Shown piece by piece: positions 1,981 to 62,175 of a DNA stretch of 64,000 nt. The notes below the pieces were generated by a model. It had not been told where the DNA came from. It did not search any database and saw only the letters and a program-made list of their open reading frames with translations. The stretch lies in the IMG/VR virus record IMGVR_UViG_3300042310_000427, positions 2,371 through 66,370 of that record; one strand, 5' to 3'. The DNA is from a virus. Made by a program: the position numbers and the translations under genes. Every line of letters begins with the position of its first letter. Position 1 is the stretch's first letter.

Positions 1981-2280
1981 CTAAAATAACAATCCTCTTT
2001 GTTCTTTACTAAGTGAGTATTTAATCTCTCTCAACTCTCTATTAATAGATGCCAGTACACAAGATTTAGTCCAACTGTATCCTTTTATCATTTTCGCTTT
2101 TGCAAGTTTTATTTCAAGCAAACAAAGTTTCATAAAAGCTCTCCCTTGTTTGGATACTTTTTTATTGAAGTCCTTTAAATTTGCTTTTTCTATTGATTTG
2201 ATCCAATCAATTCTTTTTTTGAAAAATTCCCCTGTTTTTAAATTCAGGTAGCCGATTGTTTTTAATTTGATTTTTTGCAT
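1981..2280 (-). CDS. basic hypothetical protein
   Basis: 99-aa ORF preceded by the ACACACC-ATG start motif. Confidence 0.65.
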   Translation of the reverse strand: MQKIKLKTIGYLNLKTGEFFKKRIDWIKSIEKANLKDFNKKVSKQGRAFMKLCLLEIKLAKAKMIKGYSWTKSCVLASINRELREIKYSLSKEQRGLLF

Positions 2281-2299
2281 GGTGTGTAATTTTTGATTT

Positions 2300-7080: not shown

Positions 7081-7227
7081 TTATTTATATAGATTTTTTA
7101 TTTGTCTAAGTTTGTGCCAAATTGCCCCCTTTTCGCTTGTTTTAAGGTCATTGCGTTGCATTGTGCGAATTATTAATACATTGCAATTAAAAACTATTTT
7201 TTGAGGGGTTAAAGGTCTTGTTTGCAT
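7081..7227 (-). CDS. 48-aa microprotein (MQTRPLTPQKIV...)
   Basis: translated by hand; preceded by ACACC-ATG; fills the gap between neighbouring genes. Confidence 0.5.
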   Translation of the reverse strand: MQTRPLTPQKIVFNCNVLIIRTMQRNDLKTSEKGAIWHKLRQIKNLYK

Positions 7228-7570: not shown

Positions 7571-7759
7571 TTTGTTGTCATTAATTCGAGTACAAACTAA
7601 CAATAAAGAATTAATATAAACAAATTAAAATGAAAATATTTTCAAAATAAATTCTAATTACCTGAATATCAACTAAATAAATTTTAAAATATATTTAAAA
7701 AAGTTTCAAAAGTGGTATAAAATAGGGTAAAAATCGGGGCTTAAAACTGTCAAATAAGA

Positions 7760-18271: not shown

Positions 18272-18354
18272 TATATTTGCAGACATCTTAATTCTTTAGG
18301 TTGTTTTTCATTATTTTTTTTCATGGGAACCCCAAGGTAAAATCTTGGGGTTTT
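18272..18354 (+). ncRNA. candidate sRNA with two anti-start-codon segments
   Basis: TATATTTG at 18272, two TTTTTCAT tracts, then intrinsic terminator AACCCCAAG/CTTGGGGTT-TT. Confidence 0.55.
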
Positions 18355-18435: not shown

Positions 18436-19620
18436 ATGACCGAGTTAAATGATCAAAAAGCACAATTCTTGCAATCCATAGGAGTAGAACCCAAGGTCAC
18501 TCCACCTGCAAGTGAACCAATTGAGCCTACAGAACCACAAGGGCAAGTAGTGCCAAATGAGCCAATTGTTACGAAAACAACTACAGAACCAACTCCACCT
18601 GCACCAACTCAGCCAATAGGGTTGACAGAGGACATTAAATTACAAGCAATCAATGAGGTGCTTGGAACTAACTACTCAAAATTAGAAGATGCAGTAGAGG
18701 CAAAAAACAGAATGATGGGTTATAATGAACTTAAAGAGTACAAAGAAAAGTATGATGAGTTAAATTCTAAACCACTTGCAAGTTTTCACTCTAAAACAAT
18801 TGAGGAGTTAAATAACTTTGCAAAAGTAACAGGCATAGATGACCCTACTATTATAAGGTCAGTAAAAGCATTTTCTGAAAAACAAGAAAAAGACCCGATT
18901 GAAGCATTAGTATTGGCAGAAATTTTAAATGACCCAACACTTGCTGAAAAAAGAGATTTATTGAAAAAACAAATTTCAAGAAAATATAAAATAGAAATTG
19001 ACGAAGATTTGTATGGTGAAGAATTGGAAAAAGCGAGAGAGGAATCAGACTTAAGCAAATTCCAATTGGAACGTGATGCAAGCAAGGCAATAAAAAGTAT
19101 AAGTGAAACTTTGGAAAAGGTGAATACCGAGAGCAAAGACAATCCTTATAGCAAAACTCAAGAGCAAAAACAAAATCTCAAAGCGCAATGGGATAATGTT
19201 ATTGTTAGCAACTATGACAAAATTTTTGGTAAAGTTCCTGTTCAAGTACCGAAGGGAAAGGATGAGAGTGGCAATACCATTTACGAAACCATAGACACAA
19301 TTGAGTTATCTCCAACCGAGGCTAAACAGTATGCTGAACAAGCGGTTAAATCATTGGTTAATTCTGGAACGGAAATAACTGAGGCCAATCTTGTTGATGC
19401 GGTTTATCAGCAGCATTTAATGATTCAAGCGAAACACCTTGAAAAAGTTAAAGACAAAATGTATGCGAAAATCCAAGCAGAGGTTAGATTAAACTTGGAG
19501 AAAGAAATCCACAACCCTTCATCCTTAAAGGGCGGTAACACACCACCACCACAAGCACCTGTTAAAGAGTTTGGAGATAAGATTCTCGAAAAACTTGAAA
19601 GCATGAATAGATTGAGCTAA
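18436..19620 (+). CDS. capsid scaffolding protein
   Basis: Pro/Glu-rich N-terminus, acidic helical body, between portal and capsid genes. Confidence 0.7.
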   Translation: MTELNDQKAQFLQSIGVEPKVTPPASEPIEPTEPQGQVVPNEPIVTKTTTEPTPPAPTQPIGLTEDIKLQAINEVLGTNYSKLEDAVEAKNRMMGYNELKEYKEKYDELNSKPLASFHSKTIEELNNFAKVTGIDDPTIIRSVKAFSEKQEKDPIEALVLAEILNDPTLAEKRDLLKKQISRKYKIEIDEDLYGEELEKAREESDLSKFQLERDASKAIKSISETLEKVNTESKDNPYSKTQEQKQNLKAQWDNVIVSNYDKIFGKVPVQVPKGKDESGNTIYETIDTIELSPTEAKQYAEQAVKSLVNSGTEITEANLVDAVYQQHLMIQAKHLEKVKDKMYAKIQAEVRLNLEKEIHNPSSLKGGNTPPPQAPVKEFGDKILEKLESMNRLS

Positions 19621-19727: not shown

Positions 19728-21119
19728 ATGGCAGTACCTTCAATAGCCGGAAATTTTCAAACGAATATCGTTTCCGCATTCGACGTTTTAAAACCTGATG
19801 TATTATCTAAATTATTCAAACAATATGGTGATCAAGGTTTAAATTGGTTTTTAACATTAAACCAATTAGGGTTCGTAAACCCAGTAGCAAATCAAATCTT
19901 CAATCACTATGAAGATGATTTGAAAAATCCAACATTTACTGCAAGAGCATTGGTTGCACAACCAGCAGCAGGAGCAGCTTTATTGGTAACATTAGCAGCA
20001 GTTGATGTTGACACTAACAACAATTTCTACCCAAGAGTAGGTGACCAAGTTTACTTTAAAGGTGGACAAACAGGTATCATCACTTCAATTAACGTAAGTA
20101 CACCAGCACAACCGGTATTAACTATCAGTCCTGTGTCTGCAACTTACCAATTGCCAGGTGTTGCTTTAGGTGAAGAAATGAGTATTATATCTGGTGCATT
20201 CTCTGAGGGTTCTAACCAACCTAAAGGTGCTGTAACAGGTGCAGTAAAAAGAACATTCTACACTCAAATCATTAAAGAAACTATGACAGTTACAGGTAGC
20301 CAATTGACTACTCAAACTTGGTTTGATGGTTGGATTAGCTCTGAGGACATGGTAGGTTCAGGTCAAGTATCAAGCGGTAATAGCTGGTATAACTTGCACA
20401 TGAGAGATGCTGAGTTCCGTATGGCATTAAAAACATCAGGTGCATTGTTGTTTGGTGAAGAAGGTGATGGCTCATTAATTGATGCAACAACTGGATTACC
20501 AATCTACACTACTCAAGGTTTAATTCCACAAATTAAAAAATTGGGTATGGAAGAAAACTATACTCCTGGTTCTACTTCATTAGCAGACGTTGATTCTTAC
20601 AACAGATTGTTAGACAAACAATATGCTGGTGACTTTGTAATGGGATTATTCTCTCGTCAGTACACAACTGAATTTGAAAACGCCCTATCTACTTTCTTAG
20701 CAAACACTAACATCAATTATGTTGAAAGCCAAGTCGCTTCAAGATATGGTGAAAGTGCTAAATCTATCTGTACTGATTTCAGTTCTGTAAAAAGAGGAGG
20801 AAGAACATTTATGTATCAAACATTTATGGAGTTCTCTAACAGACAAACTGTAGGTATTGCAGGTTCAGTAGCAGAATCTTATGGTGTGTTCTTACCAATG
20901 ATGACCAAAACAGATACTAAAACCAAACAAGTTGTAAATAACGTAGGTGCAAGATACAAAGCACTTGATGGTTACAGCAGAAAAATGGAAGTATGGTCAG
21001 TTAATGGTGCAGGTCCTGGTTTAAAAGTATCTCAATCAGACTTGAACAACACTTACTTAAGAAGTGAAATTGGCGCACACCAATTAGGTGTAAACCAAAT
21101 GTTATTAGTATCAGCGTAA
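19728..21119 (+). CDS. major capsid protein
   Basis: 463 aa; strongly biased high-expression codons; 'TQIIKETMTVTGS' and 'TTQGLIPQI' HK97-type motifs; followed by a terminator. Confidence 0.88.
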   Translation: MAVPSIAGNFQTNIVSAFDVLKPDVLSKLFKQYGDQGLNWFLTLNQLGFVNPVANQIFNHYEDDLKNPTFTARALVAQPAAGAALLVTLAAVDVDTNNNFYPRVGDQVYFKGGQTGIITSINVSTPAQPVLTISPVSATYQLPGVALGEEMSIISGAFSEGSNQPKGAVTGAVKRTFYTQIIKETMTVTGSQLTTQTWFDGWISSEDMVGSGQVSSGNSWYNLHMRDAEFRMALKTSGALLFGEEGDGSLIDATTGLPIYTTQGLIPQIKKLGMEENYTPGSTSLADVDSYNRLLDKQYAGDFVMGLFSRQYTTEFENALSTFLANTNINYVESQVASRYGESAKSICTDFSSVKRGGRTFMYQTFMEFSNRQTVGIAGSVAESYGVFLPMMTKTDTKTKQVVNNVGARYKALDGYSRKMEVWSVNGAGPGLKVSQSDLNNTYLRSEIGAHQLGVNQMLLVSA

Positions 21120-21139
21120 GCATAGACAAACTAAATATT

Positions 21140-21169
21140 GTGAGGGATGAAATACTCCCTCACTTTTTT
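21140..21169 (+). terminator. intrinsic terminator
   Basis: GTGAGGGA/TCCCTCAC stem plus T run. Confidence 0.85.
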
Positions 21170-21196
21170 AAATTTTAAAAAAACCAATTACACAAC

Positions 21197-22183
21197 ATGA
21201 TATACGTTAATAATGAATTAGTAAAATTCGACAAACCAAATCCATACACAAAGTTATGGGCAGAGTTCCACAAAGAGTTTGCACCTTACCTTGATGAAAC
21301 AGGGAAGTTAGTAAAACCAATCACAATCAAATACAGAGATGGCTTAACAAGGCCCGACCCTGATAACCCAGGCAAATACTTAACGCCTGCATCAAAAGGG
21401 TTGAAATTGGTATGTAATACCTATGTAGATGGATTGAGTGTTGAGATTAGATACACTAAAACTCCACCAAGAACAAATCAAAAAACAGGGGAACCTGAAT
21501 TTACAACGCAAAGTATTCCGGTAACAGGCGGTAGATTTGTAATTATGGATGACAAAGATTTAGCATTTTTCTTTTGGGCATTCAGTCCACAGAACTATGG
21601 TAAATCATCAAACATGGGTAACACAAGTGCATGGTTTATTATTGAGAACATTAGTTACGAAAATAAAGAACTTGCAGACAAAAAACGTATCAAAGCTCAA
21701 ATACAAGTTAAATTGTATGCTGATGTAGAGAACAATGGATTGTCTGATGAATCTTTGGTAGAAGTGGCTAAGTCATTAATGATACCAAATGCAGAAAGTT
21801 ACTTAAAGGATCACGATATGGATGGATTAAGGCTATTGCTTGAGAAAATGTGTGAGAACAGAGATAGAGCAGAAGAATTTTTACATGCAGCATCAAGAAC
21901 AAATGTAACAGGCAAACGCAAATCTGAAAGAGCTTATGTAATTAGAGAGGCGCTTGATATGAGAATTATCAATCAAGACTTTAAGAAAAGGTCATTCTTC
22001 CTTGCAGCCGAAGATGGTAAAAACGAAGGACAAGCACTTTACATTTGGAAACAAACAGATAAAGACCCATTAGGAGGGTTCTATACCTACTTGTATGAAA
22101 CCAATCAAGAAATGCTTAACAGCTTAGAAGAAAGGGTAGCATACCGCAAAGAAATAGCAGATGCCGAGCCGGCAGAAGCATAA
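21197..22183 (+). CDS. conserved protein downstream of the capsid gene
   Basis: 328-aa ORF in the position occupied by a conserved gene in crAss-like head modules. Confidence 0.7.
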   Translation: MIYVNNELVKFDKPNPYTKLWAEFHKEFAPYLDETGKLVKPITIKYRDGLTRPDPDNPGKYLTPASKGLKLVCNTYVDGLSVEIRYTKTPPRTNQKTGEPEFTTQSIPVTGGRFVIMDDKDLAFFFWAFSPQNYGKSSNMGNTSAWFIIENISYENKELADKKRIKAQIQVKLYADVENNGLSDESLVEVAKSLMIPNAESYLKDHDMDGLRLLLEKMCENRDRAEEFLHAASRTNVTGKRKSERAYVIREALDMRIINQDFKKRSFFLAAEDGKNEGQALYIWKQTDKDPLGGFYTYLYETNQEMLNSLEERVAYRKEIADAEPAEA

Positions 22184-22210
22184 AGATACCAGTCATGGTG
22201 TGTAGCAATT

Positions 22211-22238
22211 AAGCCAAGCAGAAATGTTTGGCTTTTTT
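22211..22238 (+). terminator. intrinsic terminator overlapping the next promoter's -33 box
   Basis: AAGCCAAGCA-GAAA-TGTTTGGCTT plus T run. Confidence 0.85.
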
Positions 22239-22322
22239 GTTTTTTATGTTATCTTTGTAGAAATATTTACGGTTTCGTTTTTCATAGTCCGGAAAGCCCT
22301 TACAGAAATGTAGGGGTTTTTT
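22227..22322 (+). ncRNA. candidate ~60-nt sRNA with an anti-start-codon segment
   Basis: TTTG-N19-TATCTTTG promoter; body ACGGTTTCGTTTTTCATAG; terminator GCCCTTACA-GAAA-TGTAGGGGT-T run. Confidence 0.6.
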
Positions 22323-22364
22323 GGTTTAAAGAAAATGTATTATATTTGCACAAACAATCTCACC

Positions 22365-22838
22365 ATGTTAAATTCAAATACTCAAATGTATGTTGATTTA
22401 TTAGATAAATACAACTACAAACCAATCCACTCAGACGACAACACAATTCTTTTTATGTATGAAAAACATACAATGAAAGTGTACCCAAAATTAAACACAT
22501 TCTTTTATCAAGGCAAAACCTATAAAGGAATTGATAAGTTGGAACAAATGTTAAACCCAAGCAAAATTGAGTTGCCAAAAAATGAAAAATTATATAGAAA
22601 AATCATATACATACATCAGGGCAAAAAAATAGTACCTAAGAAAGTATCAAGATTAATGGCTTTGTATTATGAGGTATTGGTTACAAATGGATTTGTATGT
22701 GAGGTGTTAAAAAGCGAGATACGAATACAATTTAAAGGATCAACTATTAAAATATTCCCAAATAAACAATGGCATACAGGCAAAACAATAAAAGATTGTA
22801 GGGGTATTGATAATTTATTAAGTCAATTAGGTATATAA
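22365..22838 (+). CDS. hypothetical protein with internal duplication
   Basis: CACC-ATG start behind TATATTTG; two '(M/I)K(V/I)(Y/F)P...GK...GIDxLxxxL' halves. Confidence 0.7.
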   Translation: MLNSNTQMYVDLLDKYNYKPIHSDDNTILFMYEKHTMKVYPKLNTFFYQGKTYKGIDKLEQMLNPSKIELPKNEKLYRKIIYIHQGKKIVPKKVSRLMALYYEVLVTNGFVCEVLKSEIRIQFKGSTIKIFPNKQWHTGKTIKDCRGIDNLLSQLGI

Positions 22839-22850
22839 ACACCAACATTG

Positions 22851-22930
22851 TATATTTGCAATGTCTTTTATTCGGCAAAAGACATTTCGGACTTAATCCT
22901 TGTGAGATTGTGATTAAGTCCGATTTTTTT
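22851..22930 (+). ncRNA. candidate two-hairpin sRNA
   Basis: TATATTTG, 10-bp hairpin AATGTCTTTT/AAAAGACATT, then 12-bp TCGGACTTAATC/GATTAAGTCCGA stem with T7. Confidence 0.55.
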
Positions 22931-22931
22931 A

Positions 22932-23087
22932 TTTGGAAATATGAAAAATAATATTATCTTTGTACCTGAAACAATAGTTTCACCTTTTGTGTGATAAAAG
23001 GACTAAGATATTTAAGATATACAATTTAACGATTGTACCATAAAAGTAACCTAATTCTTATCACACAGGAGTTAGGTTCTTTTTTTT
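22932..23087 (+). promoter_or_regulatory. promoter plus terminator/antiterminator leader
   Basis: TTTG-N19-TATCTTTG; the 5' hairpin loop GTGTGAT is complementary to the terminator loop ATCACAC. Confidence 0.65.
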
Positions 23088-23129
23088 ATAATCGGTTCAT
23101 ATCTGAATACCTTACCAAAAATTCGTAGA

Positions 23130-23407
23130 TTATAATTAAAAGTAAAAATAGTTATTATAAACGGTACACACATAAGTCCAGCAATGTCCTAACCTGACAA
23201 CTGGCGACTCAAACAGAAATGTTCGTGTGTGCTGACGTAAAGACCCAATGTAATAAGGTTAAAATCTTATTGCAGAAATCAGTAAGAATTGGGGAGGGAA
23301 CGAATTGTTATTTTGGCTATATTCTAAGATTCCTGTTAGATAATTAATCTCTTGGGGGCTCAATAGTACCTTTGAGGGATAAAGGACTTGGTGCGCACCG
23401 ACCACAC
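23130..23407 (+). ncRNA. candidate large structured RNA
   Basis: ORF-free, locally GC-enriched, with multiple nested stems, G-U pairs and a GAAA tetraloop. Confidence 0.55.
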
Positions 23408-23458
23408 TTATTTTTGTCATTTTAAACAATCAATCACAAATTTTCCTACATTTGCAAC

Positions 23459-23701
23459 ATGAATGATTTTTTAAATACCGCAATAGGCAGTTGGTTAAAA
23501 GTTTACATAACTGGCGTTTTAATGTTTGTTGTTGCCAATGGTGGAATACGAAGCATTGATTGGGTAACTGCATTAGAGGCAACCTTAGTCAGTTCATTGC
23601 CTGTTTTAATTAATTACCTTAATCCAAAAGATACAAGGTATGGTAGTAAGAAAAAAATAGAAGATTTTAAACCTGAAAAAACAGATAAAATAACAGAATG
23701 A
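23459..23701 (+). CDS. holin
   Basis: 80 aa, two hydrophobic segments, 'YLNPKDTRYG', charged tail, overlaps the amidase start. Confidence 0.8.
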   Translation: MNDFLNTAIGSWLKVYITGVLMFVVANGGIRSIDWVTALEATLVSSLPVLINYLNPKDTRYGSKKKIEDFKPEKTDKITE

Positions 23702-24361: not shown

Positions 24362-24876
24362 ATCAGTATTTAAAGACCATACTAAAAGCAGCAATACTAA
24401 TTGGAGTAATTGCTATGTTACTTTCAAGTTGCACCACGCAACAAAAAGCCAATAGAAAAATTAAATGGCTCAAAGACCACAATTATCTGACCACAAAAAA
24501 GGACACTATAAGAGATACAATCCCTGAATACAAAGATACAGGCAGTATTAAGTTGCTTGTAGAGTATGATAGTATTGATAAGTGGAACCTTAAAGATACT
24601 TGCTACACTAAAGGCAGGGCAAATAGAATATTGTCTGTAGTAAAAATTGATTCAGTAAAAGTAGATAACGATAGAATAAAGCTCACCATTTGGATGGGCA
24701 AGGATGGTAAAATAATGTATGACTATAATGTAAAAGAGGTTATTGTAGAAAAACCAATAGAAGTTCCAATCCTAAAAGATTGCCCCAAAGAGAAATGGTG
24801 GGAAAAGTTTTGGATAGGATTTGTGGTGGCAGTTGTGGTGGGAGTTATATTGGGATTTTTGTTTCGGAGAAAATAA
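24358..24876 (+). CDS. unimolecular-spanin-like lipoprotein
   Basis: signal peptide with LSSC lipobox plus a C-terminal TM helix (FWIGFVVAVVVGVILGFLF-RRK); follows the endolysin. Confidence 0.75.
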   Translation: MNQYLKTILKAAILIGVIAMLLSSCTTQQKANRKIKWLKDHNYLTTKKDTIRDTIPEYKDTGSIKLLVEYDSIDKWNLKDTCYTKGRANRILSVVKIDSVKVDNDRIKLTIWMGKDGKIMYDYNVKEVIVEKPIEVPILKDCPKEKWWEKFWIGFVVAVVVGVILGFLFRRK

Positions 24877-27142: not shown

Positions 27143-27826
27143 ATGACAGTTGAAGATATAAGAAATTGGGTTAATTACGAGCTTAACAAACATCAAACAG
27201 GGGATACTCTTTCAAAAGACGAGTATAACCTTTGTTTGAAGTGGGCCAATCAAGAGTATTTTAAGATTAAATACTCATTGCCTGAGCAGTATCAACCTGG
27301 ACAACCACTTGCAGGGCAAGCATGGGCAGTTACTCAAGAAAGCATTGATGCTTTAAGTCCATTCCTTATTGGAAAGGGCGGAAAAGACTATCCTGAATTA
27401 AAGGTAGATGCCAATGGTTTTGCAAGTTACCCAAGTGATTATGTCCATGTATCTTCAATTAGGTATGGTAAAAAACCAGTAGAGGTTGTAAGCAATGATG
27501 TGTTAGGAGATAGATTAGATAGTCCAATAGTAAATCCTACCAAGCAATACCCAATCTGTTGTTTTTATTCTAACTACATTCAGTTTTACCCAGAGGATTT
27601 AGCCTTTGTAAAATTTGATTACTTAAGGATGCCACAAACACCGGTATGGGCAGCAACAATAGTAAATGACGAATATGTTTACAATCCAAATGCAAGTATC
27701 CAATTAGAGTGGCCCGAGTTCACTCATATAGATATTGCAAACTTAATTGTAAATTACGCAGCAAAAAATCTTAGAGATTTTGATATGGTCCAAATAAGCC
27801 AACAAAGAAAATTACAAGGAGAATAA
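27143..27826 (+). CDS. tail ring/tubular protein
   Basis: size, position and 'YPSDY...FDYLRMP' pattern of podoviral ring proteins. Confidence 0.7.
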   Translation: MTVEDIRNWVNYELNKHQTGDTLSKDEYNLCLKWANQEYFKIKYSLPEQYQPGQPLAGQAWAVTQESIDALSPFLIGKGGKDYPELKVDANGFASYPSDYVHVSSIRYGKKPVEVVSNDVLGDRLDSPIVNPTKQYPICCFYSNYIQFYPEDLAFVKFDYLRMPQTPVWAATIVNDEYVYNPNASIQLEWPEFTHIDIANLIVNYAAKNLRDFDMVQISQQRKLQGE

Positions 27827-52130: not shown

Positions 52131-52483
52131 TTTATCTTACTTAGTATATAATTCCTTGCAATATCATCCACCAAAATAAATGTTCTACCATTAGTATCGG
52201 TAGATTCTGGGAATGGCACAACAGTGGTTAATCTTAAATTAAGGGAACCATCTCTTTTAGCGTAAGGGGAGATTGCATTTCTAATGCGTGATTCACCTAC
52301 CTTACATAATAAAGCCATTTGTTGAACAGTTATAATATCCCACTTTAAAACCAACTTTACTTCTTCAAAAGATAGCCCTGAATACTCAGATAGGCTTTTT
52401 ATCTCATCATCGTGCCACCTTCCAGGCTCCAAGTGATGATACTTTTCAAGATTTAAAGTTGGCTTTTCCAAAGCGGTATTCAT
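52127..52483 (-). CDS. HTH DNA-binding protein
   Basis: 'ITVQQMALLCKVGESRIRN'; start MNTAL with ACACACC-ATG and TATATTTG promoter. Confidence 0.65.
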   Translation of the reverse strand: MNTALEKPTLNLEKYHHLEPGRWHDDEIKSLSEYSGLSFEEVKLVLKWDIITVQQMALLCKVGESRIRNAISPYAKRDGSLNLRLTTVVPFPESTDTNGRTFILVDDIARNYILSKIK

Positions 52484-52572
52484 GGTGTGTGGTGCAAATA
52501 TAACACTTATTTCAATAAAGTGATAAAAAAAATTAATTATTTTCATCACTTTTAGGTTTTAAAATAAAAATA

Positions 52573-53288: not shown

Positions 53289-53322
53289 AAAAAAACCTCT
53301 CAAGAAATTGGGAGGTTTTTTT
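53289..53322. terminator. bidirectional intrinsic terminator
   Basis: A7-CCTCTCAA-GAAA-TTGGGAGG-T7 between convergent arms. Confidence 0.85.
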
Positions 53323-53482
53323 ATTTTAAAGGACAATCCAATTAAAGAATTTTTCTAAGTATGGGTATGCGCCTGACCATATTACAAGCTCAAACAATCC
53401 CCTTGCAAGCAATTTCCCAAGATTAAGACCTATAATTACAATGGCAATATAATATAGGATGTTAAATATTATTTTCATTTTT

Positions 53483-53800: not shown

Positions 53801-54000
53801 TTTATTATTTTCTTAAATTCTCTCCACATCCCTTTATCAAAATCTCTCCAAACATTTTTAGGGTGTCCGATGTTGTCAATGTACTTTAAATCACCTTTCT
53901 TGAATAAAAGGTATTGGACATTACCGAATAGCTTATTTCTTCTTGCAGGATACTTGTAGCAAGATCCATACTCCCAAAATATATCTTTAAATTTACTCAT
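53797..54000 (-). CDS. hypothetical protein
   Basis: 67 aa, coupled. Confidence 0.6.
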   Translation of the reverse strand: MSKFKDIFWEYGSCYKYPARRNKLFGNVQYLLFKKGDLKYIDNIGHPKNVWRDFDKGMWREFKKIIK

Positions 54001-54244
54001 TATTTATATCTTCAAACACCAATGCTTCGGGTGCCACTTGTTCAACTCTACCATCTATTCTTGCAATAACTGCAGTTGTTTGAGATTGCATAAGGACTGT
54101 ATGTCCATTATCGTGCAATACTGAACTTGATTGACTTCCCCAATGCAAAAAATAAACTGTTTCATACATGGGAGGTATGTAAGCTCCTTCTTCATCGTGA
54201 TACTCTGGGCGTAATACTTGGCATTTTATTTTTTTTATTCCCAT
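53993..54244 (-). CDS. hypothetical protein
   Basis: ACACACC-ATG start; 'FLHWG...TTAVIARIDGRVEQV' pattern. Confidence 0.7.
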   Translation of the reverse strand: MGIKKIKCQVLRPEYHDEEGAYIPPMYETVYFLHWGSQSSSVLHDNGHTVLMQSQTTAVIARIDGRVEQVAPEALVFEDINNE

Positions 54245-54263
54245 GGTGTGTGGTTAAACCTTT

Positions 54264-59210: not shown

Positions 59211-59393
59211 TTATTTTTTTAATCTATCTACAATTTTACCTTTTTTTTCTAATCTTTTGTATGCGTAGTAAACAGATGTTCTATCTCTGCCATACATATC
59301 AGCAATCATTTGAGGGTGCTTGTGTCTGTTCTTCCATACAAAGTCATCAAACTTGCTTACTTCTTGTTCGGTTGATCCTTTAGTTCTTGGCAT
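59211..59393 (-). CDS. small HTH protein
   Basis: 'IADMYGRDRTSVYYAYKRLEKKG'; likely start MPRTK. Confidence 0.6.
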   Translation of the reverse strand: MPRTKGSTEQEVSKFDDFVWKNRHKHPQMIADMYGRDRTSVYYAYKRLEKKGKIVDRLKK

Positions 59394-60636
59394 TAATAAC
59401 TTCCTCCATAATTTCAATTTGAAGTTTATCTACACCTCGCTGTACTTGTTCCATAATAATTTGCAGGTCAAGTTCTTTGGCAAGTTTTTGAATAACCTTT
59501 AATCTATCAACTCCAAGAGATTCGCCTCTTTGGATAAATAACATTCCAAGGGAAGGATTTTCAGCAATTTTCATTCTTACGCCAAGTTCCATAATCTCTG
59601 ATGATGATAGATTGCTTGTGGATACAGGAACACCTCTCCAAATTAAGCCTTCCTCATTAAACAATAAATCATCTACAGATAAGGCACATTCTTTAATTGT
59701 ATGGGCAATTTCTTCTCTGGCACTTTCAATCATAATGGTAAGGTTTTGGGATTTCTCAGTAAGTTCCTTAAGGACATCTTTACCTATTAAATAATCTAAT
59801 TTAGTAGCATAATTAGCATTTAGTTCCATTGCATTGTCTTTTTGGGCCATAAGCTCAGATACATCCACCGGTTTGTTTGTTTTAAGGTATTCCTCTGCCT
59901 TTAAAACTTTATCAAGCACTTCTAATTTCTTGGCCTTTAATCTTTCAATTTCTTGGTCTATGGATTCGATTTCTTTTTTGTTAGATTCAAGCCTTTGGGA
60001 TACACCTTCAATGTCATTATTAGATTTGATAGACATTGCAAGTTTTTCAGACAGTTCTTTAATATCAATCTTCTTTTCAGGGATTTTATTTAAGTCAATC
60101 TTATGGTAATTATGATTTGCAAGGATATTCTCATTGGCTTTAATTTGAGAGTTTATCTCAGTTCTGGTTCTGAAATAATCATCAACTCTATTCTCACATT
60201 CAATGACTACTTGTTTAACTTCATCATCTAAAAATGATTTGTAAATCTCTACTTGTTGTTTGCGCCCTGCCTTAGTTTCTGATAGTCTTACAAACTCATC
60301 AATATCAAAATCTACTGCACCTACTACATTAGCAAGGACTGATTTGCGTGTATCTACAATACCCTCTGGGGATGTAACTGTTACTACAGGTTTGCCATGT
60401 TTAAATCTGACTAAAAACTTCCATTCATTGCCATCTTTATCTACAATGATATAACCTTCACCATCTGCCTTCTCAGGGATGGATGTCTGCCTACCAAGTG
60501 CAATTTCTATGAATTGGATTACTGAGGACTTCCCTCTGCCATTATCTCCTAAGAGAATGATGTTGTGTCCGTTAATTTCCTTTTCAAGGTTTCTGACTAC
60601 CTTAAAGTCTTTAATGTTTATTTTTACGAGTTTCAT
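59380..60636 (-). CDS. SMC/Rad50-like ATPase
   Basis: GDNGRGKSS Walker A, central coiled coil, degenerate LSSSE signature. Confidence 0.85.
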   Translation of the reverse strand: MKLVKINIKDFKVVRNLEKEINGHNIILLGDNGRGKSSVIQFIEIALGRQTSIPEKADGEGYIIVDKDGNEWKFLVRFKHGKPVVTVTSPEGIVDTRKSVLANVVGAVDFDIDEFVRLSETKAGRKQQVEIYKSFLDDEVKQVVIECENRVDDYFRTRTEINSQIKANENILANHNYHKIDLNKIPEKKIDIKELSEKLAMSIKSNNDIEGVSQRLESNKKEIESIDQEIERLKAKKLEVLDKVLKAEEYLKTNKPVDVSELMAQKDNAMELNANYATKLDYLIGKDVLKELTEKSQNLTIMIESAREEIAHTIKECALSVDDLLFNEEGLIWRGVPVSTSNLSSSEIMELGVRMKIAENPSLGMLFIQRGESLGVDRLKVIQKLAKELDLQIIMEQVQRGVDKLQIEIMEEVINAKN

Positions 60637-60642
60637 GGTGTG

Positions 60643-61326
60643 TTATTTTTTTAAATAGTTTATTAAATCTTCTTCGTTTTTAATCCAACCCATATCTATT
60701 GCAGATATTACAGTTTTTTCAATATCGGTAATTGCTCTTAATTCTTTGGCACTTGCAAGGTTTCTCATTCCAGAAATGTGTTGACCAAAAACCTTAACAT
60801 TTATAAGCGTTGCGTATTCAGCGTAATTTGGCGATTGAATTATTGATTTTATTTTGACATTCATTGGTAAATACTCTGAACCTGCTTCAATTCTATCGAA
60901 AATCAAAGTATCAGCAACCCAAGCAATAACTTTACCATATAAAATGTAGTTTAATTCAAGTGCAATCGAAATCCATATATAAGGATGAGCTACAACTTGT
61001 TTGTTATCTCCCCTACCAGATGTCTTATAAACTCCAATTCCTTTCAAAACGCTTATAAGTTTCTCTTTTTTAACCATTCCCATAAACTTCGACATGTCGC
61101 ATTTTATGAGATTAAGTTCTAAAAGCACTCCATAGCACTTTTTAGCCATGTCGTCTGTAAGCATAAGTTGGTTTACTGTTTGACCCGTCCATCCAAATTG
61201 CCATCTACCTTTTTCGTACGCTTTCTGCAAATCGGTTACACTTAAAAATTGGTCTTTTGTGTTTTGTCTAATAATTGTGCCAAATAAATTTCTATCTGAG
61301 CTTTTTAAAATTACATTACTTTTCAT
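60643..61326 (-). CDS. KilA-N domain protein
   Basis: 'IRQNTKDQFLSVTDL...GRG...AHPYIWISIALELN'. Confidence 0.8.
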   Translation of the reverse strand: MKSNVILKSSDRNLFGTIIRQNTKDQFLSVTDLQKAYEKGRWQFGWTGQTVNQLMLTDDMAKKCYGVLLELNLIKCDMSKFMGMVKKEKLISVLKGIGVYKTSGRGDNKQVVAHPYIWISIALELNYILYGKVIAWVADTLIFDRIEAGSEYLPMNVKIKSIIQSPNYAEYATLINVKVFGQHISGMRNLASAKELRAITDIEKTVISAIDMGWIKNEEDLINYLKK

Positions 61327-61392: not shown

Positions 61393-62175
61393 TTACTTAT
61401 AAATTGTTTTTAAAAAATCTCTTGCATCAATTACTCTCTCTTTAATGAATCCTTCTTGCTTTTCATCTCTTTTGTATGATTTGATGTGTATTCTATATTC
61501 AAGTGGAATGTGAACAAAGTTTTCAATAATTGCTTTGCATCTGCTATCAGATTTAACCTCAGAAATATTAAGTCCAAAATTAGCTTGTTCCAACCACTCC
61601 TCAAAAAGCTCACCTTCAAAAATCATATTGTTAGCAATCTTAAGGATTTTATAATCTTCAAGCACACCACCATTATAGTATTTTTCTTTTTCGATTGCCT
61701 TGTTTACTTCAATGATTGGTGATGATAACAAAGTGTAAACCAATGTAAAGTTGCTTACTTCATACAAATCCATATAACCTCTGCCTTGTGCCTCATAAGT
61801 CTTGTTGTCCTTCTCTGAGATTTTCATTTCCTCGTATGTGAATACATCCCAAGAGTTTTTTATGTCAATAACAGTATCTTGATCTGATGCTAAAATATCA
61901 CAAGCACCATCAAAGTATTGATTTTTTTTGCGAGATTCATTCTTTTTGTAGTCATTGCCGGTAAAATCATTAAGAATTTGTATGGAGGTATCTTCAAGCA
62001 ATATCCCTTTATTTACCTTATCGAACTTCTTTTCAGGTTGTGTCCTGTTAGATGCTGCTTGAATGTATGTTTTAATGGCGGTCTTTTTACCAATTTCGCC
62101 AAGTCCTTTTACTCCTAATAAATCCACAATGTTGTGGCATCTGAATAAGAGATTGTCTATGTTAATTTTTTTCAT
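61393..62175 (-). CDS. YqaJ/lambda-type PD-(D/E)xK exonuclease
   Basis: 'KGILLE...GACD...IDIKNSW...YEAQGRGYM'; likely start MKKIN. Confidence 0.85.
   Translation of the reverse strand: MKKINIDNLLFRCHNIVDLLGVKGLGEIGKKTAIKTYIQAASNRTQPEKKFDKVNKGILLEDTSIQILNDFTGNDYKKNESRKKNQYFDGACDILASDQDTVIDIKNSWDVFTYEEMKISEKDNKTYEAQGRGYMDLYEVSNFTLVYTLLSSPIIEVNKAIEKEKYYNGGVLEDYKILKIANNMIFEGELFEEWLEQANFGLNISEVKSDSRCKAIIENFVHIPLEYRIHIKSYKRDEKQEGFIKERVIDARDFLKTIYK

What the first reader, a model, noticed from the sequence alone, without database searches (positions are those of the whole stretch)
22184..22238. Capsid-operon 3' UTR carries a perfect antisense copy of the phage's own early-gene start motif
Seen: CATGGTGTGT occurs on the + strand exactly at the starts of four leftward genes (2278, 52481, 54242, 60634), with near copies at 7225 and 62173. 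A fifth perfect copy lies at 22194, in the ~27 nt between the stop of gene 21197-22183 and its terminator. Read leftward, it would open only a 26-codon ORF antisense to a large gene. Inference: the abundant, hairpin-protected 3' end of the late mRNA could pair with ACACACCAUG start sites and switch off a whole class of early/middle genes, a one-to-many temporal switch.
Basis: partly seen in the sequence, partly recalled or inferred. Interest (0 to 1): 0.72.

Follow-up and report, generated by a model that had tools for sequence, protein, structure and literature searches.

The report
Anti-start-site element in phage 3' UTR
Just behind the gene that follows the capsid gene, this freshwater crAss-like phage keeps a short conserved RNA stretch that mirrors start-codon regions; it most likely folds back onto its own gene's start to control translation, and may also reach four early genes.

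Summary
CATGGTGTGT occurs 5 times, all on the + strand (0.04 expected). Four copies overlap the ATG of leftward genes. The fifth lies at 22194-22203, between the stop of gene 21197-22183 and its terminator.

The element is under selection. A sister clade whose protein is only about 51% identical keeps TAAAGATACC, TCATGGTGTGTA and the 26-nt terminator letter for letter.

In that clade, 0 of 4 orthologues of the "target" genes start with ACACACC, and no other perfect copy exists.

What is conserved with the UTR is the gene's own start, ACACAACAUGA.
- It pairs with the UTR over 12-14 bp with one mismatch.
- That pairing ranks 2 of 91 and 1 of 54 genes.
- Pair probabilities are 0.72-0.998 in full-mRNA folds.
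- Across five genomes, own 5' with own 3' is the best of 120 assignments.

Best reading (about 0.45): an icaR-like 5'-3' UTR pairing adapted to Shine-Dalgarno-less Bacteroidota. Trans action on the four early genes of this phage remains possible (about 0.2).

No RNA data exist. This scan has noted similar 3'-UTR anti-leader elements on other Bacteroidota and crAss-like phage DNA; those are unchecked notes.

The parts
19728..21119 (+). Major capsid protein gene (SU10-type), upstream neighbour in the late head operon
   Evidence: PF17236 SU10_MCP, E 2e-09, 37.8 bits against cut-off 24.1. phrog_13704 virion structural protein.
21140..21173 (+). Terminator-like hairpin between the capsid gene and gene 21197. 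It is probably leaky, because no TAnnTTTG box follows it.
   Evidence: Terminator scan: 8 pairs plus a T-run. Sequence read.
21189..21201 (+). Start region of the 328-aa gene (UACACAACAUGAU, positions -8 to +5). This is the proposed cis partner of the 3' UTR.
   Evidence: 1-mismatch copy of the motif. ACACAACATGATATA is identical in clade B. It is paired to 22192-22204 in the MFE, with pair probabilities 0.72-0.998.
21197..22183 (+). Gene for a conserved 328-aa protein of unknown function (called p328 here). It always lies directly after the capsid gene.
   Evidence: No Pfam or PHROG family. 6 homologues found. Syntenic in 7 of 7 related loci. The predicted fold resembles uncharacterised proteins of Cellulophaga phage phi14:2, Tenacibaculum phage Gundel_1 and crAss-like viruses.
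22184..22203 (+). Small hairpin H1. AUACCA (22186-22191) pairs with UGGUGU (22196-22201) around loop GUCA, so half of the motif is held in a weak local stem.
   Evidence: RNAfold gives -6.5 kcal/mol for H1 alone; 11 of 200 shuffles fold as well. Both arms are identical in clade B.
22192..22204 (+). Anti-start-site segment GUCAUGGUGUGUA, which contains the fifth CATGGTGTGT at 22194-22203
   Evidence: TCATGGTGTGTA is conserved 12 of 12 in clade B. It is complementary to the gene's own start and to four early-gene starts.
22211..22240 (+). Intrinsic terminator H2 (stem AAGCCAAGC / GTTTGGCTT, loop AGAAAT, then a T-run)
   Evidence: Terminator scan: 10 pairs. The fold of the UTR gives -25.3 kcal/mol, z -6.45. 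26 of 26 positions are identical in clade B.
2278..2287 (-). ACACACCATG at the start of leftward gene 1981-2280 (99 aa). Candidate trans target.
   Evidence: Duplex with the UTR -18.4 kcal/mol.
52481..52490 (-). ACACACCATG at the start (ATG at 52483) of a 118-aa leftward gene, 6 nt after a TATATTTG box, so the leader is very short
   Evidence: Its orthologues in G003 and G004 have a TTTG box directly before their ATG.
54242..54251 (-). ACACACCATG at the start of leftward gene 53993-54244 (83 aa)
   Evidence: Duplex -17.4 kcal/mol.
60634..60643 (-). ACACACCATG at the start of leftward gene 59380-60636 (418-aa AAA/SMC-type ATPase)
   Evidence: PF13175 AAA_15. Duplex -18.5 kcal/mol, the best of 91 starts.

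Best explanation
The 27 nt between the stop of gene 21197-22183 and its terminator form a conserved anti-start-site element. Its segment GUCAUGGUGUGUA pairs with the start region of the same mRNA about 1 kb upstream (UACACAACAUGAU, -8 to +5). This covers the AUG and the Kozak-like -3 region that Shine-Dalgarno-less Bacteroidota ribosomes rely on, and so throttles or times translation of this gene.

The upstream block AGAUACC can instead pair locally with GGUGU (hairpin H1). The element can therefore switch between a closed form and a form paired to the start site. H1 begins 3 nt after the stop codon, so a terminating ribosome would open it.

Shown: the complementarity, the conservation, the co-variation between clades, and the thermodynamic prediction. 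Inferred: that the pairing forms in the cell, that it represses translation, and the ribosome-coupled switch.
For: (1) Conservation.
- Window against clade B (L055, L053; protein about 51% identical): the last 41 coding columns are 16 of 41 identical.
- TAAAGATACC is 10 of 10 identical, TCATGGTGTGTA 12 of 12, and the terminator 26 of 26. A variable spacer with a 4-nt indel lies between them.
- The 5' partner ACACAACATGATATA is also identical.

(2) Own start against own 3' flank (duplex energy).
- The gene ranks 2 of 91 (G000), 1 of 54 (G002), 11 of 83 (G003), 9 of 77 (G004) and 10 of 109 (G005).
- Against 3000 random windows per genome, P = 0.0027, 0.0007, 0.022, 0.034 and 0.059.

(3) Partition-function folds of the whole mRNA (about 1.07-1.10 kb).
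- In the window and L055 the helix is the MFE, with pair probabilities 0.72-0.998.
- In L053, CAUGA:UCAUG has probabilities 0.84-0.97 in the same register. An AC insertion in its leader shifts the rest of the register, so the MFE pairs UACACAC with GUGUGUA.

(4) MFE folds of all genes of 450-1300 nt.
- This gene has the most start-region bases paired to its 3' flank in G000 (12 bases; 1 of 29), G002 (14; 1 of 18) and G004 (14; 1 of 20). It ties for first in G003 (10; 20 genes).
- In G005 it ranks 8 of 38, but its leader at -20 to -8 pairs with UCGUGGUUAU.

(5) Cross-clade 5x5 duplex matrix.
- Own 5' with own 3' is the best of 120 assignments, and the best of 24 when only one of clades A and B is used.

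(6) Helix anchored at AUG:CAU.
- Between clades A/B and C, positions -1 (C-G to U-A), -4 (C-G to A-U) and -5 (A-U to U-G) change on both sides and stay paired.

(7) Genome-wide scan.
- Among 24-nt windows scanned every 4 nt on both strands of G000, the UTR is 6th against this start region. That count includes the trivial antisense of the start itself.
Against: - No RNA data of any kind are available.
- Long-range pairs predicted by RNAfold are unreliable, and the two ends of any folded RNA tend to pair. About a third of control genes showed some such pairing.
- Clades A and B are not independent. The signals in clades C to E are individually weak (P 0.02-0.06).
- In the matrix, clade C's 5' end pairs as well with clade D's 3' end (-10.2 against -10.0).
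- An A-G mismatch at -2 is conserved in clades A and B. In the window, the UTR matches four early-gene starts better (-17.4 to -18.5 kcal/mol) than its own start (-14.9).
- H1 holds part of the segment.
- My gene calls are crude: the first ATG of ORFs of at least 50 aa, chosen greedily. They missed the start at 52483.
Confidence: 0.45

Rival explanations
1. The 3' end of the late mRNA, or a small RNA processed from it, acts in trans. Its CAUGGUGUGU seed pairs with ACACACCAUG at the starts of four early or middle leftward genes and shuts off their translation late in infection. This could coexist with the cis reading.
For: - Four perfect 10-nt matches extend to 11-12 bp, at -17.4 to -18.5 kcal/mol. 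They include the three best of 91 called starts; the start at 52483 was not in my gene calls.
- Mean of the top three duplexes: P = 0.0033 against shuffles and 0.0115 against 260 natural CAT-containing windows.
- The layout, a seed followed by a terminator hairpin and a U-tail, is that of 3'-UTR small RNAs.
- Four unrelated genes share an exact 10-mer that clade B lacks, which calls for some selective cause.
- Hints in other clades: the G005 UTR has a 12-nt perfect complement (ATTATGAACGAA) to the start of an antirepressor-like gene (P = 0.006). The best duplex in G003 is with the orthologue of the 418-aa ATPase gene (-18.9).
Against: - Clade B keeps the identical UTR, yet 0 of 4 orthologues (of genes 1981-2280, 53993-54244, 59380-60636 and 61393-62175) start with ACACACC.
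- G001 and G002 hold no other perfect copy.
- With natural windows as the null, G002, G003, G004 and G005 are not significant (p_best 0.31, 0.33, 0.51, 0.14).
- Half of the seed lies in H1.
- I saw no TTTG box in the roughly 60 nt upstream of the UTR that could make a separate small RNA (sequence read; no dedicated scan was run).
- The match could be a by-product of CA-rich start contexts shared with the gene's own start. Such contexts occur at 4 of 91 called starts against 13 of 2399 other ATGs.
Confidence: 0.2
2. The UTR is conserved for a reason unrelated to start sites. H1 plus H2 could form a 3'-end stability or termination module, or the binding site of a phage or host RNA-binding protein. 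Its likeness to the complement of CA-rich starts would then be incidental.
For: - The two arms of H1 (AUACC and GGUGU) are exactly the conserved blocks.
- Clade E also has a hairpin directly after the stop, with UUCAU in its loop.
- The terminator is conserved far beyond what a stem needs. Its 18-nt core recurs in 29 viral-contig stretches, only 2 of which are relatives. This suggests sequence-specific recognition.
- A single antisense 10-mer has a chance expectation of about 0.04 per window, which is small but was judged after the fact.
Against: - H1 is weak (-5.5 to -6.5 kcal/mol), and 11 and 17 of 200 shuffles fold as well.
- A purely structural stem would tolerate compensatory change, yet all 19 stem-block bases are identical.
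- This reading does not explain why the gene's own start is the best or near-best partner in several clades, nor the matrix result.
Confidence: 0.25
3. The CAT is the start of a real leftward small gene (26 aa, MTGIFMLLPARHLLFLCGMLPFLLSC), translated from an antisense transcript.
For: - It has the same start context as four real leftward genes.
- The peptide is hydrophobic.
Against: - The equivalent ORFs in the five genomes are 26, 23, 41, 5 and 30 aa. They are alike only in the residues encoded by the conserved UTR block.
- I saw no TAnnTTTG box on the minus strand in the 60 nt shown upstream (sequence read).
- The hydrophobicity is what the antisense of a Glu/Lys-rich C-terminus would give anyway.
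Confidence: 0.03
4. A DNA-level signal. CATGGTGTGT would be a strand-polar site for a DNA-binding or recombination protein, which happens to overlap four start codons.
For: - All 5 copies of the 10-mer, and all 8 copies of ATGGTGTGT, are on the + strand, with 0 on the - strand (0.52 expected for the 9-mer).
Against: - Four copies sit in exact register with an ATG, which points to an RNA or translation role.
- Of the three extra 9-mers, two encode Tyr-Gly-Val inside + strand genes and one lies inside a leftward gene.
- Clade B has a single copy.
Confidence: 0.05

Closest known systems
icaR mRNA of Staphylococcus aureus: 5'-3' UTR pairing (PMC3868564; seen: search listing and start of abstract). 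Also B. subtilis hbs 5'/3'-UTR interaction (PMC5737220; seen: listing and start of abstract).
   Same: A short segment of the 3' UTR of an mRNA is complementary to the ribosome-binding region of the same mRNA. It is proposed to close the message and limit initiation.
   Different: - Here the covered region is not a Shine-Dalgarno sequence. It is the AUG plus the A/C-rich -1 to -8 context of a Shine-Dalgarno-less Bacteroidota-type message.
- The UTR is only 27 nt long and directly abuts the stop codon.
- A competing local hairpin (H1) is present.
- The host is a phage late operon.
- Nothing has been shown experimentally. RNase III involvement in icaR is recalled from memory and was not tested here.
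3'-UTR-derived base-pairing small RNAs of bacteria (CpxQ, SroC, DapZ type; recalled from own knowledge). Also CisR, a 3'-UTR small RNA acting on a CTX-phi mRNA (PMC13250501; seen: listing and start of abstract).
   Same: The seed lies just upstream of the mRNA's own intrinsic terminator. Candidate targets are matched at their start codons over 10-12 bp.
   Different: - No evidence exists for a processed fragment or an internal promoter.
- Bacteroidota lack Hfq (recalled).
- Target complementarity is not conserved in the sister clade.
- The proposed direction, phage late RNA acting on phage early mRNAs, is not described in the papers I saw.
GibS and other Bacteroides thetaiotaomicron small RNAs (PMC7366714, PMC11697453; seen: listings and starts of abstracts)
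   Same: Base-pairing RNA regulation exists in the host phylum. That it occurs at translation initiation regions rests on those papers containing my search term, not on passages I read.
   Different: Those are stand-alone chromosomal small RNAs with experimental support. This is a phage 3' UTR known only from sequence.
T4 RegA-type translational repressor acting on many early start sites (recalled from own knowledge)
   Same: One factor recognises a short sequence overlapping the AUG of several early genes. This would equally explain why four early genes share ACACACCAUG.
   Different: RegA is a protein. No such protein was looked for or identified here.

Membership tests
cis 5'-3' UTR pairing control (icaR type) | A 3'-UTR segment is complementary to the translation initiation region of the same mRNA | tested here: met
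   12 bp (window) to 14 bp (clade B) with one mismatch, at -14.9 and -16.1 kcal/mol. Rank 2 of 91 and 1 of 54.
cis 5'-3' UTR pairing control (icaR type) | Both partners are conserved or co-vary in relatives | tested here: met
   Both partners are identical in clades A and B. The diagonal of the 5x5 matrix is the best of 120 permutations. Three positions change on both sides between clades A/B and C. The signals in clades C to E are individually weak.
cis 5'-3' UTR pairing control (icaR type) | The pairing forms in vivo and lowers translation or stability | not testable with these tools
   No RNA runs hold the sequence. Only thermodynamic prediction is available.
3'-UTR-derived trans-acting small RNA | A seed upstream of an intrinsic terminator, complementary to target start sites | tested here: met
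   Four perfect 10-mers at gene starts. Terminator at 22211-22240.
3'-UTR-derived trans-acting small RNA | The seed is accessible (single-stranded) | tested here: inconclusive
   GGUGU of the seed is in the weak hairpin H1, -6.5 kcal/mol.
3'-UTR-derived trans-acting small RNA | Seed-target complementarity is kept in relatives | tested here: not met
   0 of 4 clade-B orthologues carry the motif although the UTR is identical.
3'-UTR-derived trans-acting small RNA | A stable small RNA species exists (processing site or internal promoter) | not testable with these tools
   No RNA holder was listed. I saw no TTTG box in the last 60 nt of the gene.
Intrinsic (Rho-independent) terminator | A G+C-containing stem-loop followed by a U-run | tested here: met
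   10 pairs, loop of 4, then TTTTTTGTTTTT. The fold has z -6.45.
Rfam RNA families | A match to any curated covariance model | tested here: not met
   cmscan of 20500-23500 at E up to 1 gave only an unrelated hit at 23292-23376 (E 0.29).
Small antisense protein gene | Conserved ORF length and sequence | tested here: not met
   ORFs of 26, 23, 41, 5 and 30 aa with unrelated sequence.

The most novel reading that the evidence does not exclude
The element is a dual-use anti-start-site RNA. An ancestral cis regulator of the gene after the capsid gene would, in this phage lineage, have been co-opted as a one-to-many trans repressor. Four unrelated early genes would have converged on the perfect complement ACACACCAUG, so that the abundant late transcript's 3' end silences them. 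That would be a protein-free late-on-early switch in Shine-Dalgarno-less Bacteroidota phages. It may be one instance of a wider habit of crAss-like phages of placing anti-leader sequences in 3' UTRs.
Probability: 0.15. Interest if true: 0.75.

Novelty: new variant of a known kind. Interest (0 to 1): 0.5.

Why it matters
Bacteroidota and their phages start translation without Shine-Dalgarno pairing. They rely on unstructured A-rich leaders and a Kozak-like A at -3 (PMC6847099, passages read).

How such messages are regulated after transcription is little known, and phage small RNAs are called mostly unexplored (PMC11512511, passages read).

A conserved 27-nt 3' UTR that masks its own start codon would show that 5'-3' UTR pairing is used in this setting. 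It would also give a compact regulatory part that could be carried over to Bacteroidia.

If the trans reading also holds, it would be an RNA-only temporal switch between late and early phage genes.

Tried and rejected
Searches for relatives:
- DNA (distant mode) and protein searches of the phage collection found nothing.
- A single-protein scan of viral contigs found nothing.
- Relatives came only from the capsid protein and from an alignment of homologues.
Scans of genome contigs with A1 and P0003 and of viral contigs with P0003 and P0002 gave no new locus.
- The pattern AGATACCNNNCATGGTGTGT found 3 stretches: the 2 known relatives and 1 unrelated coding match in an integrase-like gene.
- The 16-mer of the gene's start found 42 stretches. 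The 40 new loci encode no relative.

RNA evidence and strain variation:
- No RNA holder was listed among 24 runs.
- Contigs of four DNA runs were laid. No difference is listed between 22147 and 22244 in the rows shown (35 more rows were not shown). At about 3% divergence that is not significant.

Other tests:
- Rfam gave nothing relevant.
- The PDB sequence search gave E 0.59 only. The Foldseek PDB search gave no match at E of 0.001 or better.
- A read-through reading was considered, because 71 in-frame codons after the stop are open. I rejected it because the frame is not kept in clade B, which has an indel in the spacer.
- TAAAGATACC occurs 4 times against 0.18 expected. The other three copies are in-frame Lys-Asp-Thr codons, so I do not count it as a repeat family.
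- Shuffle-based P values for trans pairing in all five genomes were not upheld with natural windows as the null.
- The antisense ORF was rejected.
- Supplementary files of papers were not opened. The supplementary tables of PMC6847099 and PMC11512511 might bear on start contexts and phage small RNAs.

Not-in-print claim: it rests only on searches. One search returned 53 papers, of which 8 were listed, and none of the listed titles or abstracts describes a phage late 3' UTR that masks start sites.

Full report
**What the window is.**
- The window is 64,000 of the 66,370 bases of an uncultured virus record estimated at 90% complete. G+C is about 33%.
- The promoters I read in it are of the Bacteroidota type (TAnnTTTG boxes; the consensus is recalled). 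Leaders are A-rich and lack Shine-Dalgarno sequences.
- Rightward genes from about 9.4 to 51.9 kb encode the large terminase, portal and capsid proteins. They also include a 2862-aa ORF.
- Leftward blocks at 1-9 kb and 52-64 kb hold small genes and an AAA/SMC-type ATPase.
- DNA runs that hold the stretch carry freshwater, lake and estuary labels.
- The predicted fold of the 328-aa protein resembles uncharacterised proteins of Cellulophaga phage phi14:2, Tenacibaculum phage Gundel_1 and crAss-like viruses. I therefore call it a crAss-like phage of Bacteroidota.

**The observation.**
- CATGGTGTGT occurs five times, all on the + strand. Shuffles expect 0.04 copies, and 0 of 100 shuffles reach five.
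- Four copies overlap the ATG of leftward genes: 1981-2280, the ATG at 52483, 53993-54244 and 59380-60636.
- The fifth copy is at 22194-22203, inside the 27 nt between the stop at 22181-22183 and the terminator stem that begins at 22211.
- Of the near copies, 62173 has one mismatch and sits at a real-looking start. 7225 has two mismatches and opens only 48 codons.
- Gene 21197-22183 is not the capsid gene. It is a conserved 328-aa protein without a family, which I call p328. It lies directly after the SU10-type capsid gene 19728-21119.
- Its own start reads ACACAACATG, a one-mismatch copy of the motif.

**Is the 3' UTR functional?**
- Relatives were found through the capsid protein and an alignment of p328 homologues.
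- They fall into four groups:
  - Clade B: G001, G002, L053 and L055, with p328 about 51% identical to the window's.
  - Clade C: G003, L047 and L048, 36-37% identical.
  - Clade D: G004, L010 and L011, 37% identical.
  - Clade E: G005, 31% identical.
- In the alignment of the window with clade B, the last 41 coding columns are 16 of 41 identical. From the stop codon onward the picture changes:
  - TAAAGATACC is 10 of 10 identical.
  - Two variable bases follow.
  - TCATGGTGTGTA is 12 of 12 identical.
  - A variable spacer follows, with a 4-nt indel.
  - The terminator, GCCAAGCAGAAATGTTTGGCTTTTTT, is 26 of 26 identical.
- Separate conserved blocks around a variable spacer indicate selection rather than recent transfer.
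- Clades C to E have different UTRs. All of them keep CAU 7-18 nt after the stop, followed by a GGUG-like run.

- G002 (33 kb) carries orthologues of four of the window's motif-bearing genes. These are the three perfect ones 1981-2280, 53993-54244 and 59380-60636, and the near copy 61393-62175.
- None of the four starts with ACACACC. Their contexts are AAAAAGCC, a TTG start, AAGATAAT and ATAAATAAAA.
- G001 and G002 each hold a single perfect copy of the motif, which is the UTR itself. Each also holds the one-mismatch copy at p328's own start.
- I then compared duplex energies of each genome's UTR with all other gene starts. These beat mononucleotide shuffles in four of the five genomes at 0.05 (p_best 0.023-0.037) and reach 0.076 in G003.
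- Against natural CAT-containing windows of the same genome, only the window's genome stands out (top-three P = 0.0115). G002, G003, G004 and G005 give p_best of 0.31, 0.33, 0.51 and 0.14.
- Two hints remain:
  - The G005 UTR has a perfect 12-nt complement to the start of an antirepressor-like gene (P = 0.006).
  - The best duplex in G003 is with the orthologue of the 418-aa ATPase gene, which is also the best target in the window.
- So trans targeting is not the conserved function. In the window's own phage it stays physically plausible, with 10-12 bp at -17.4 to -18.5 kcal/mol.

**What does travel with the UTR: the gene's own start.**
- ACACAACATGATATA is identical in clades A and B.
- It pairs with the UTR over 12 bp (window) or 14 bp (clade B) with one A-G mismatch.
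- Own start against own 3' flank ranks 2 of 91, 1 of 54, 11 of 83, 9 of 77 and 10 of 109 genes in G000, G002, G003, G004 and G005. Against 3000 random windows, P = 0.0027, 0.0007, 0.022, 0.034 and 0.059.
- In partition-function folds of the full mRNA, the helix is the MFE with pair probabilities of 0.72-0.998 in the window and L055.
- In L053, CAUGA:UCAUG has probabilities of 0.84-0.97 in the same register. An AC insertion in its leader moves the rest of the register, so the MFE pairs UACACAC with GUGUGUA and GG pairs fully.
- I also made MFE folds of every gene of 450-1300 nt. p328 has the most start-region bases paired to its 3' flank in G000 (1 of 29), G002 (1 of 18) and G004 (1 of 20). It ties for first in G003 (20 genes) and ranks 8 of 38 in G005, where the leader at -20 to -8 pairs instead.
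- In a 5x5 matrix of 5' against 3' segments across the five genomes, the own-own assignment is the best of 120 permutations. It is also the best of 24 when clades A and B are not both counted.
- Anchored at AUG:CAU, clades A/B and C differ on both sides at positions -1, -4 and -5 and stay paired.

**Local structure.**
- Alone, the UTR folds as H1 plus the terminator H2, at -25.3 kcal/mol and z -6.45. In H1, AUACCA pairs with UGGUGU around loop GUCA.
- H1 explains why AGAUACC is conserved and why the seed keeps GG. But H1 is weak, at -6.5 and -5.5 kcal/mol, and 11 and 17 of 200 shuffles fold as well.
- Clade E also has a hairpin straight after the stop, with UUCAU in its loop.
- I infer a switch between H1 and the long-range helix. 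H1 starts 3 nt after the stop codon, so a terminating ribosome would open it. That step is inference only.

**Other readings.**
- The antisense ORFs are 26, 23, 41, 5 and 30 aa and are unrelated.
- A DNA-level polar site is suggested only by strand bias: ATGGTGTGT occurs 8 to 0 against 0.52 expected. The exact register with four ATGs argues for an RNA role.
- CA-only contexts occur at 4 of 91 called starts against 13 of 2399 other ATGs in G000, and at 3 of 54 against 5 of 1248 in G002. They are absent at starts in G003 and G004. Clades A and B therefore share a class of CA-rich starts that includes p328 and the scaffold-like gene. Part of the match to the early genes may be a by-product of this class.

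**Comparison with known systems.**
- The nearest known mechanism is the pairing of the icaR 3' UTR with its own ribosome-binding region (PMC3868564). The hbs 5'/3'-UTR interaction is similar (PMC5737220). For both I saw only the listing and the start of the abstract.
- The variant here masks the AUG and the -1 to -8 context, not a Shine-Dalgarno sequence. That fits what Baez et al. report for F. johnsoniae, where A at -3 and -6 and low structure tune initiation (PMC6847099, passages read).
- It has the layout of 3'-UTR-derived small RNAs but fails their test of target conservation.
- Searches listed no paper that describes a phage late 3' UTR masking start sites.
- This scan's own notes list similar anti-leader 3' UTRs in other Bacteroidota and crAss-like phages. 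I treat them as leads, not as evidence.

**Verdict.**
- The element is real and conserved.
- The best explanation is cis masking of the gene's own start (0.45).
- A purely structural or protein-binding role is the main alternative (0.25).
- Everything rests on sequence and thermodynamic prediction.

Noticed in passing
window 22211-22240, 22296-22325, 53291-53325; loci L013-L041: Three + strand terminators in the window share the loop AGAAAT. The 18-nt core of the p328 terminator, CCAAGCAGAAATGTTTGG, occurs in 29 viral-contig stretches, and only 2 of them are relatives. About 20 embed it in another conserved context (..AAGTCGATAATCC..GGATTATTTGTT). Others use it inside unrelated terminators. 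It may be a hairpin recognised by its sequence.
   Followed up: partly
window 22250-22325: The conserved promoter box TTATCTTTG right after the terminator drives only a stretch of about 65 nt that ends in a second terminator. In clades C and D the same box sits 4 nt before an ATG (ATGAAAAAGGA...), so that gene would be leaderless. The window's unit looks like a remnant or a small-RNA gene.
   Followed up: partly
window 18272-18354; G002 27150-27260: A promoter-plus-terminator mini-unit lies between the portal gene and the scaffold-like gene and contains UUUUUCAU twice. Clade B keeps the architecture, but CGC replaces CAT there. The late-promoter-like box ACAACCTATT before the scaffold-like gene is conserved in clade B.
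   Followed up: partly
window 2279-60643: ATGGTGTGT occurs 8 times, all on the + strand (0.52 expected). Of the three extra copies, those at 20881 and 25128 encode Tyr-Gly-Val inside + strand genes, and the one at 2453 lies inside a leftward gene.
   Followed up: partly
window 22184-22396: After the TAA stop of p328, the same frame stays open for 71 codons, running through two terminators and two promoter boxes. The frame is not kept in clade B, so this is probably a T-rich accident.
   Followed up: yes
G005 (L012 record) 7720-7731 and 24805-24816: The p328 3' UTR of this distant relative has a perfect 12-nt complement (ATTATGAACGAA), plus GATAAC nearby, to the start of an antirepressor-like + strand gene.
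   Followed up: partly
window 22244: In one freshwater run (X6) a contig matches up to 22244 and then continues with unlike sequence. Another contig shares only the terminator at 22215-22244. This points to a mosaic junction right behind the terminator.
   Followed up: no
window ~51172 (G000 53542, + strand): One other gene has an even stronger duplex between its own start and its own 3' flank than p328 (-16.9 kcal/mol; rank 1 of 91).
   Followed up: no
window 18436-19620: The scaffold-like gene between the portal and capsid genes starts with UUACAUACACAUGA. Its clade-B orthologue starts with UUUUACACAAACAUGA. Both are among the best non-own partners of the UTR (-17.2 and -15.7 kcal/mol).
   Followed up: partly
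window 52483; G003 and G004 orthologues: The gene at 52483 and its orthologues have a TTTG box only 5-14 nt before the ATG, so their mRNAs would be leaderless or have a very short leader.
   Followed up: no
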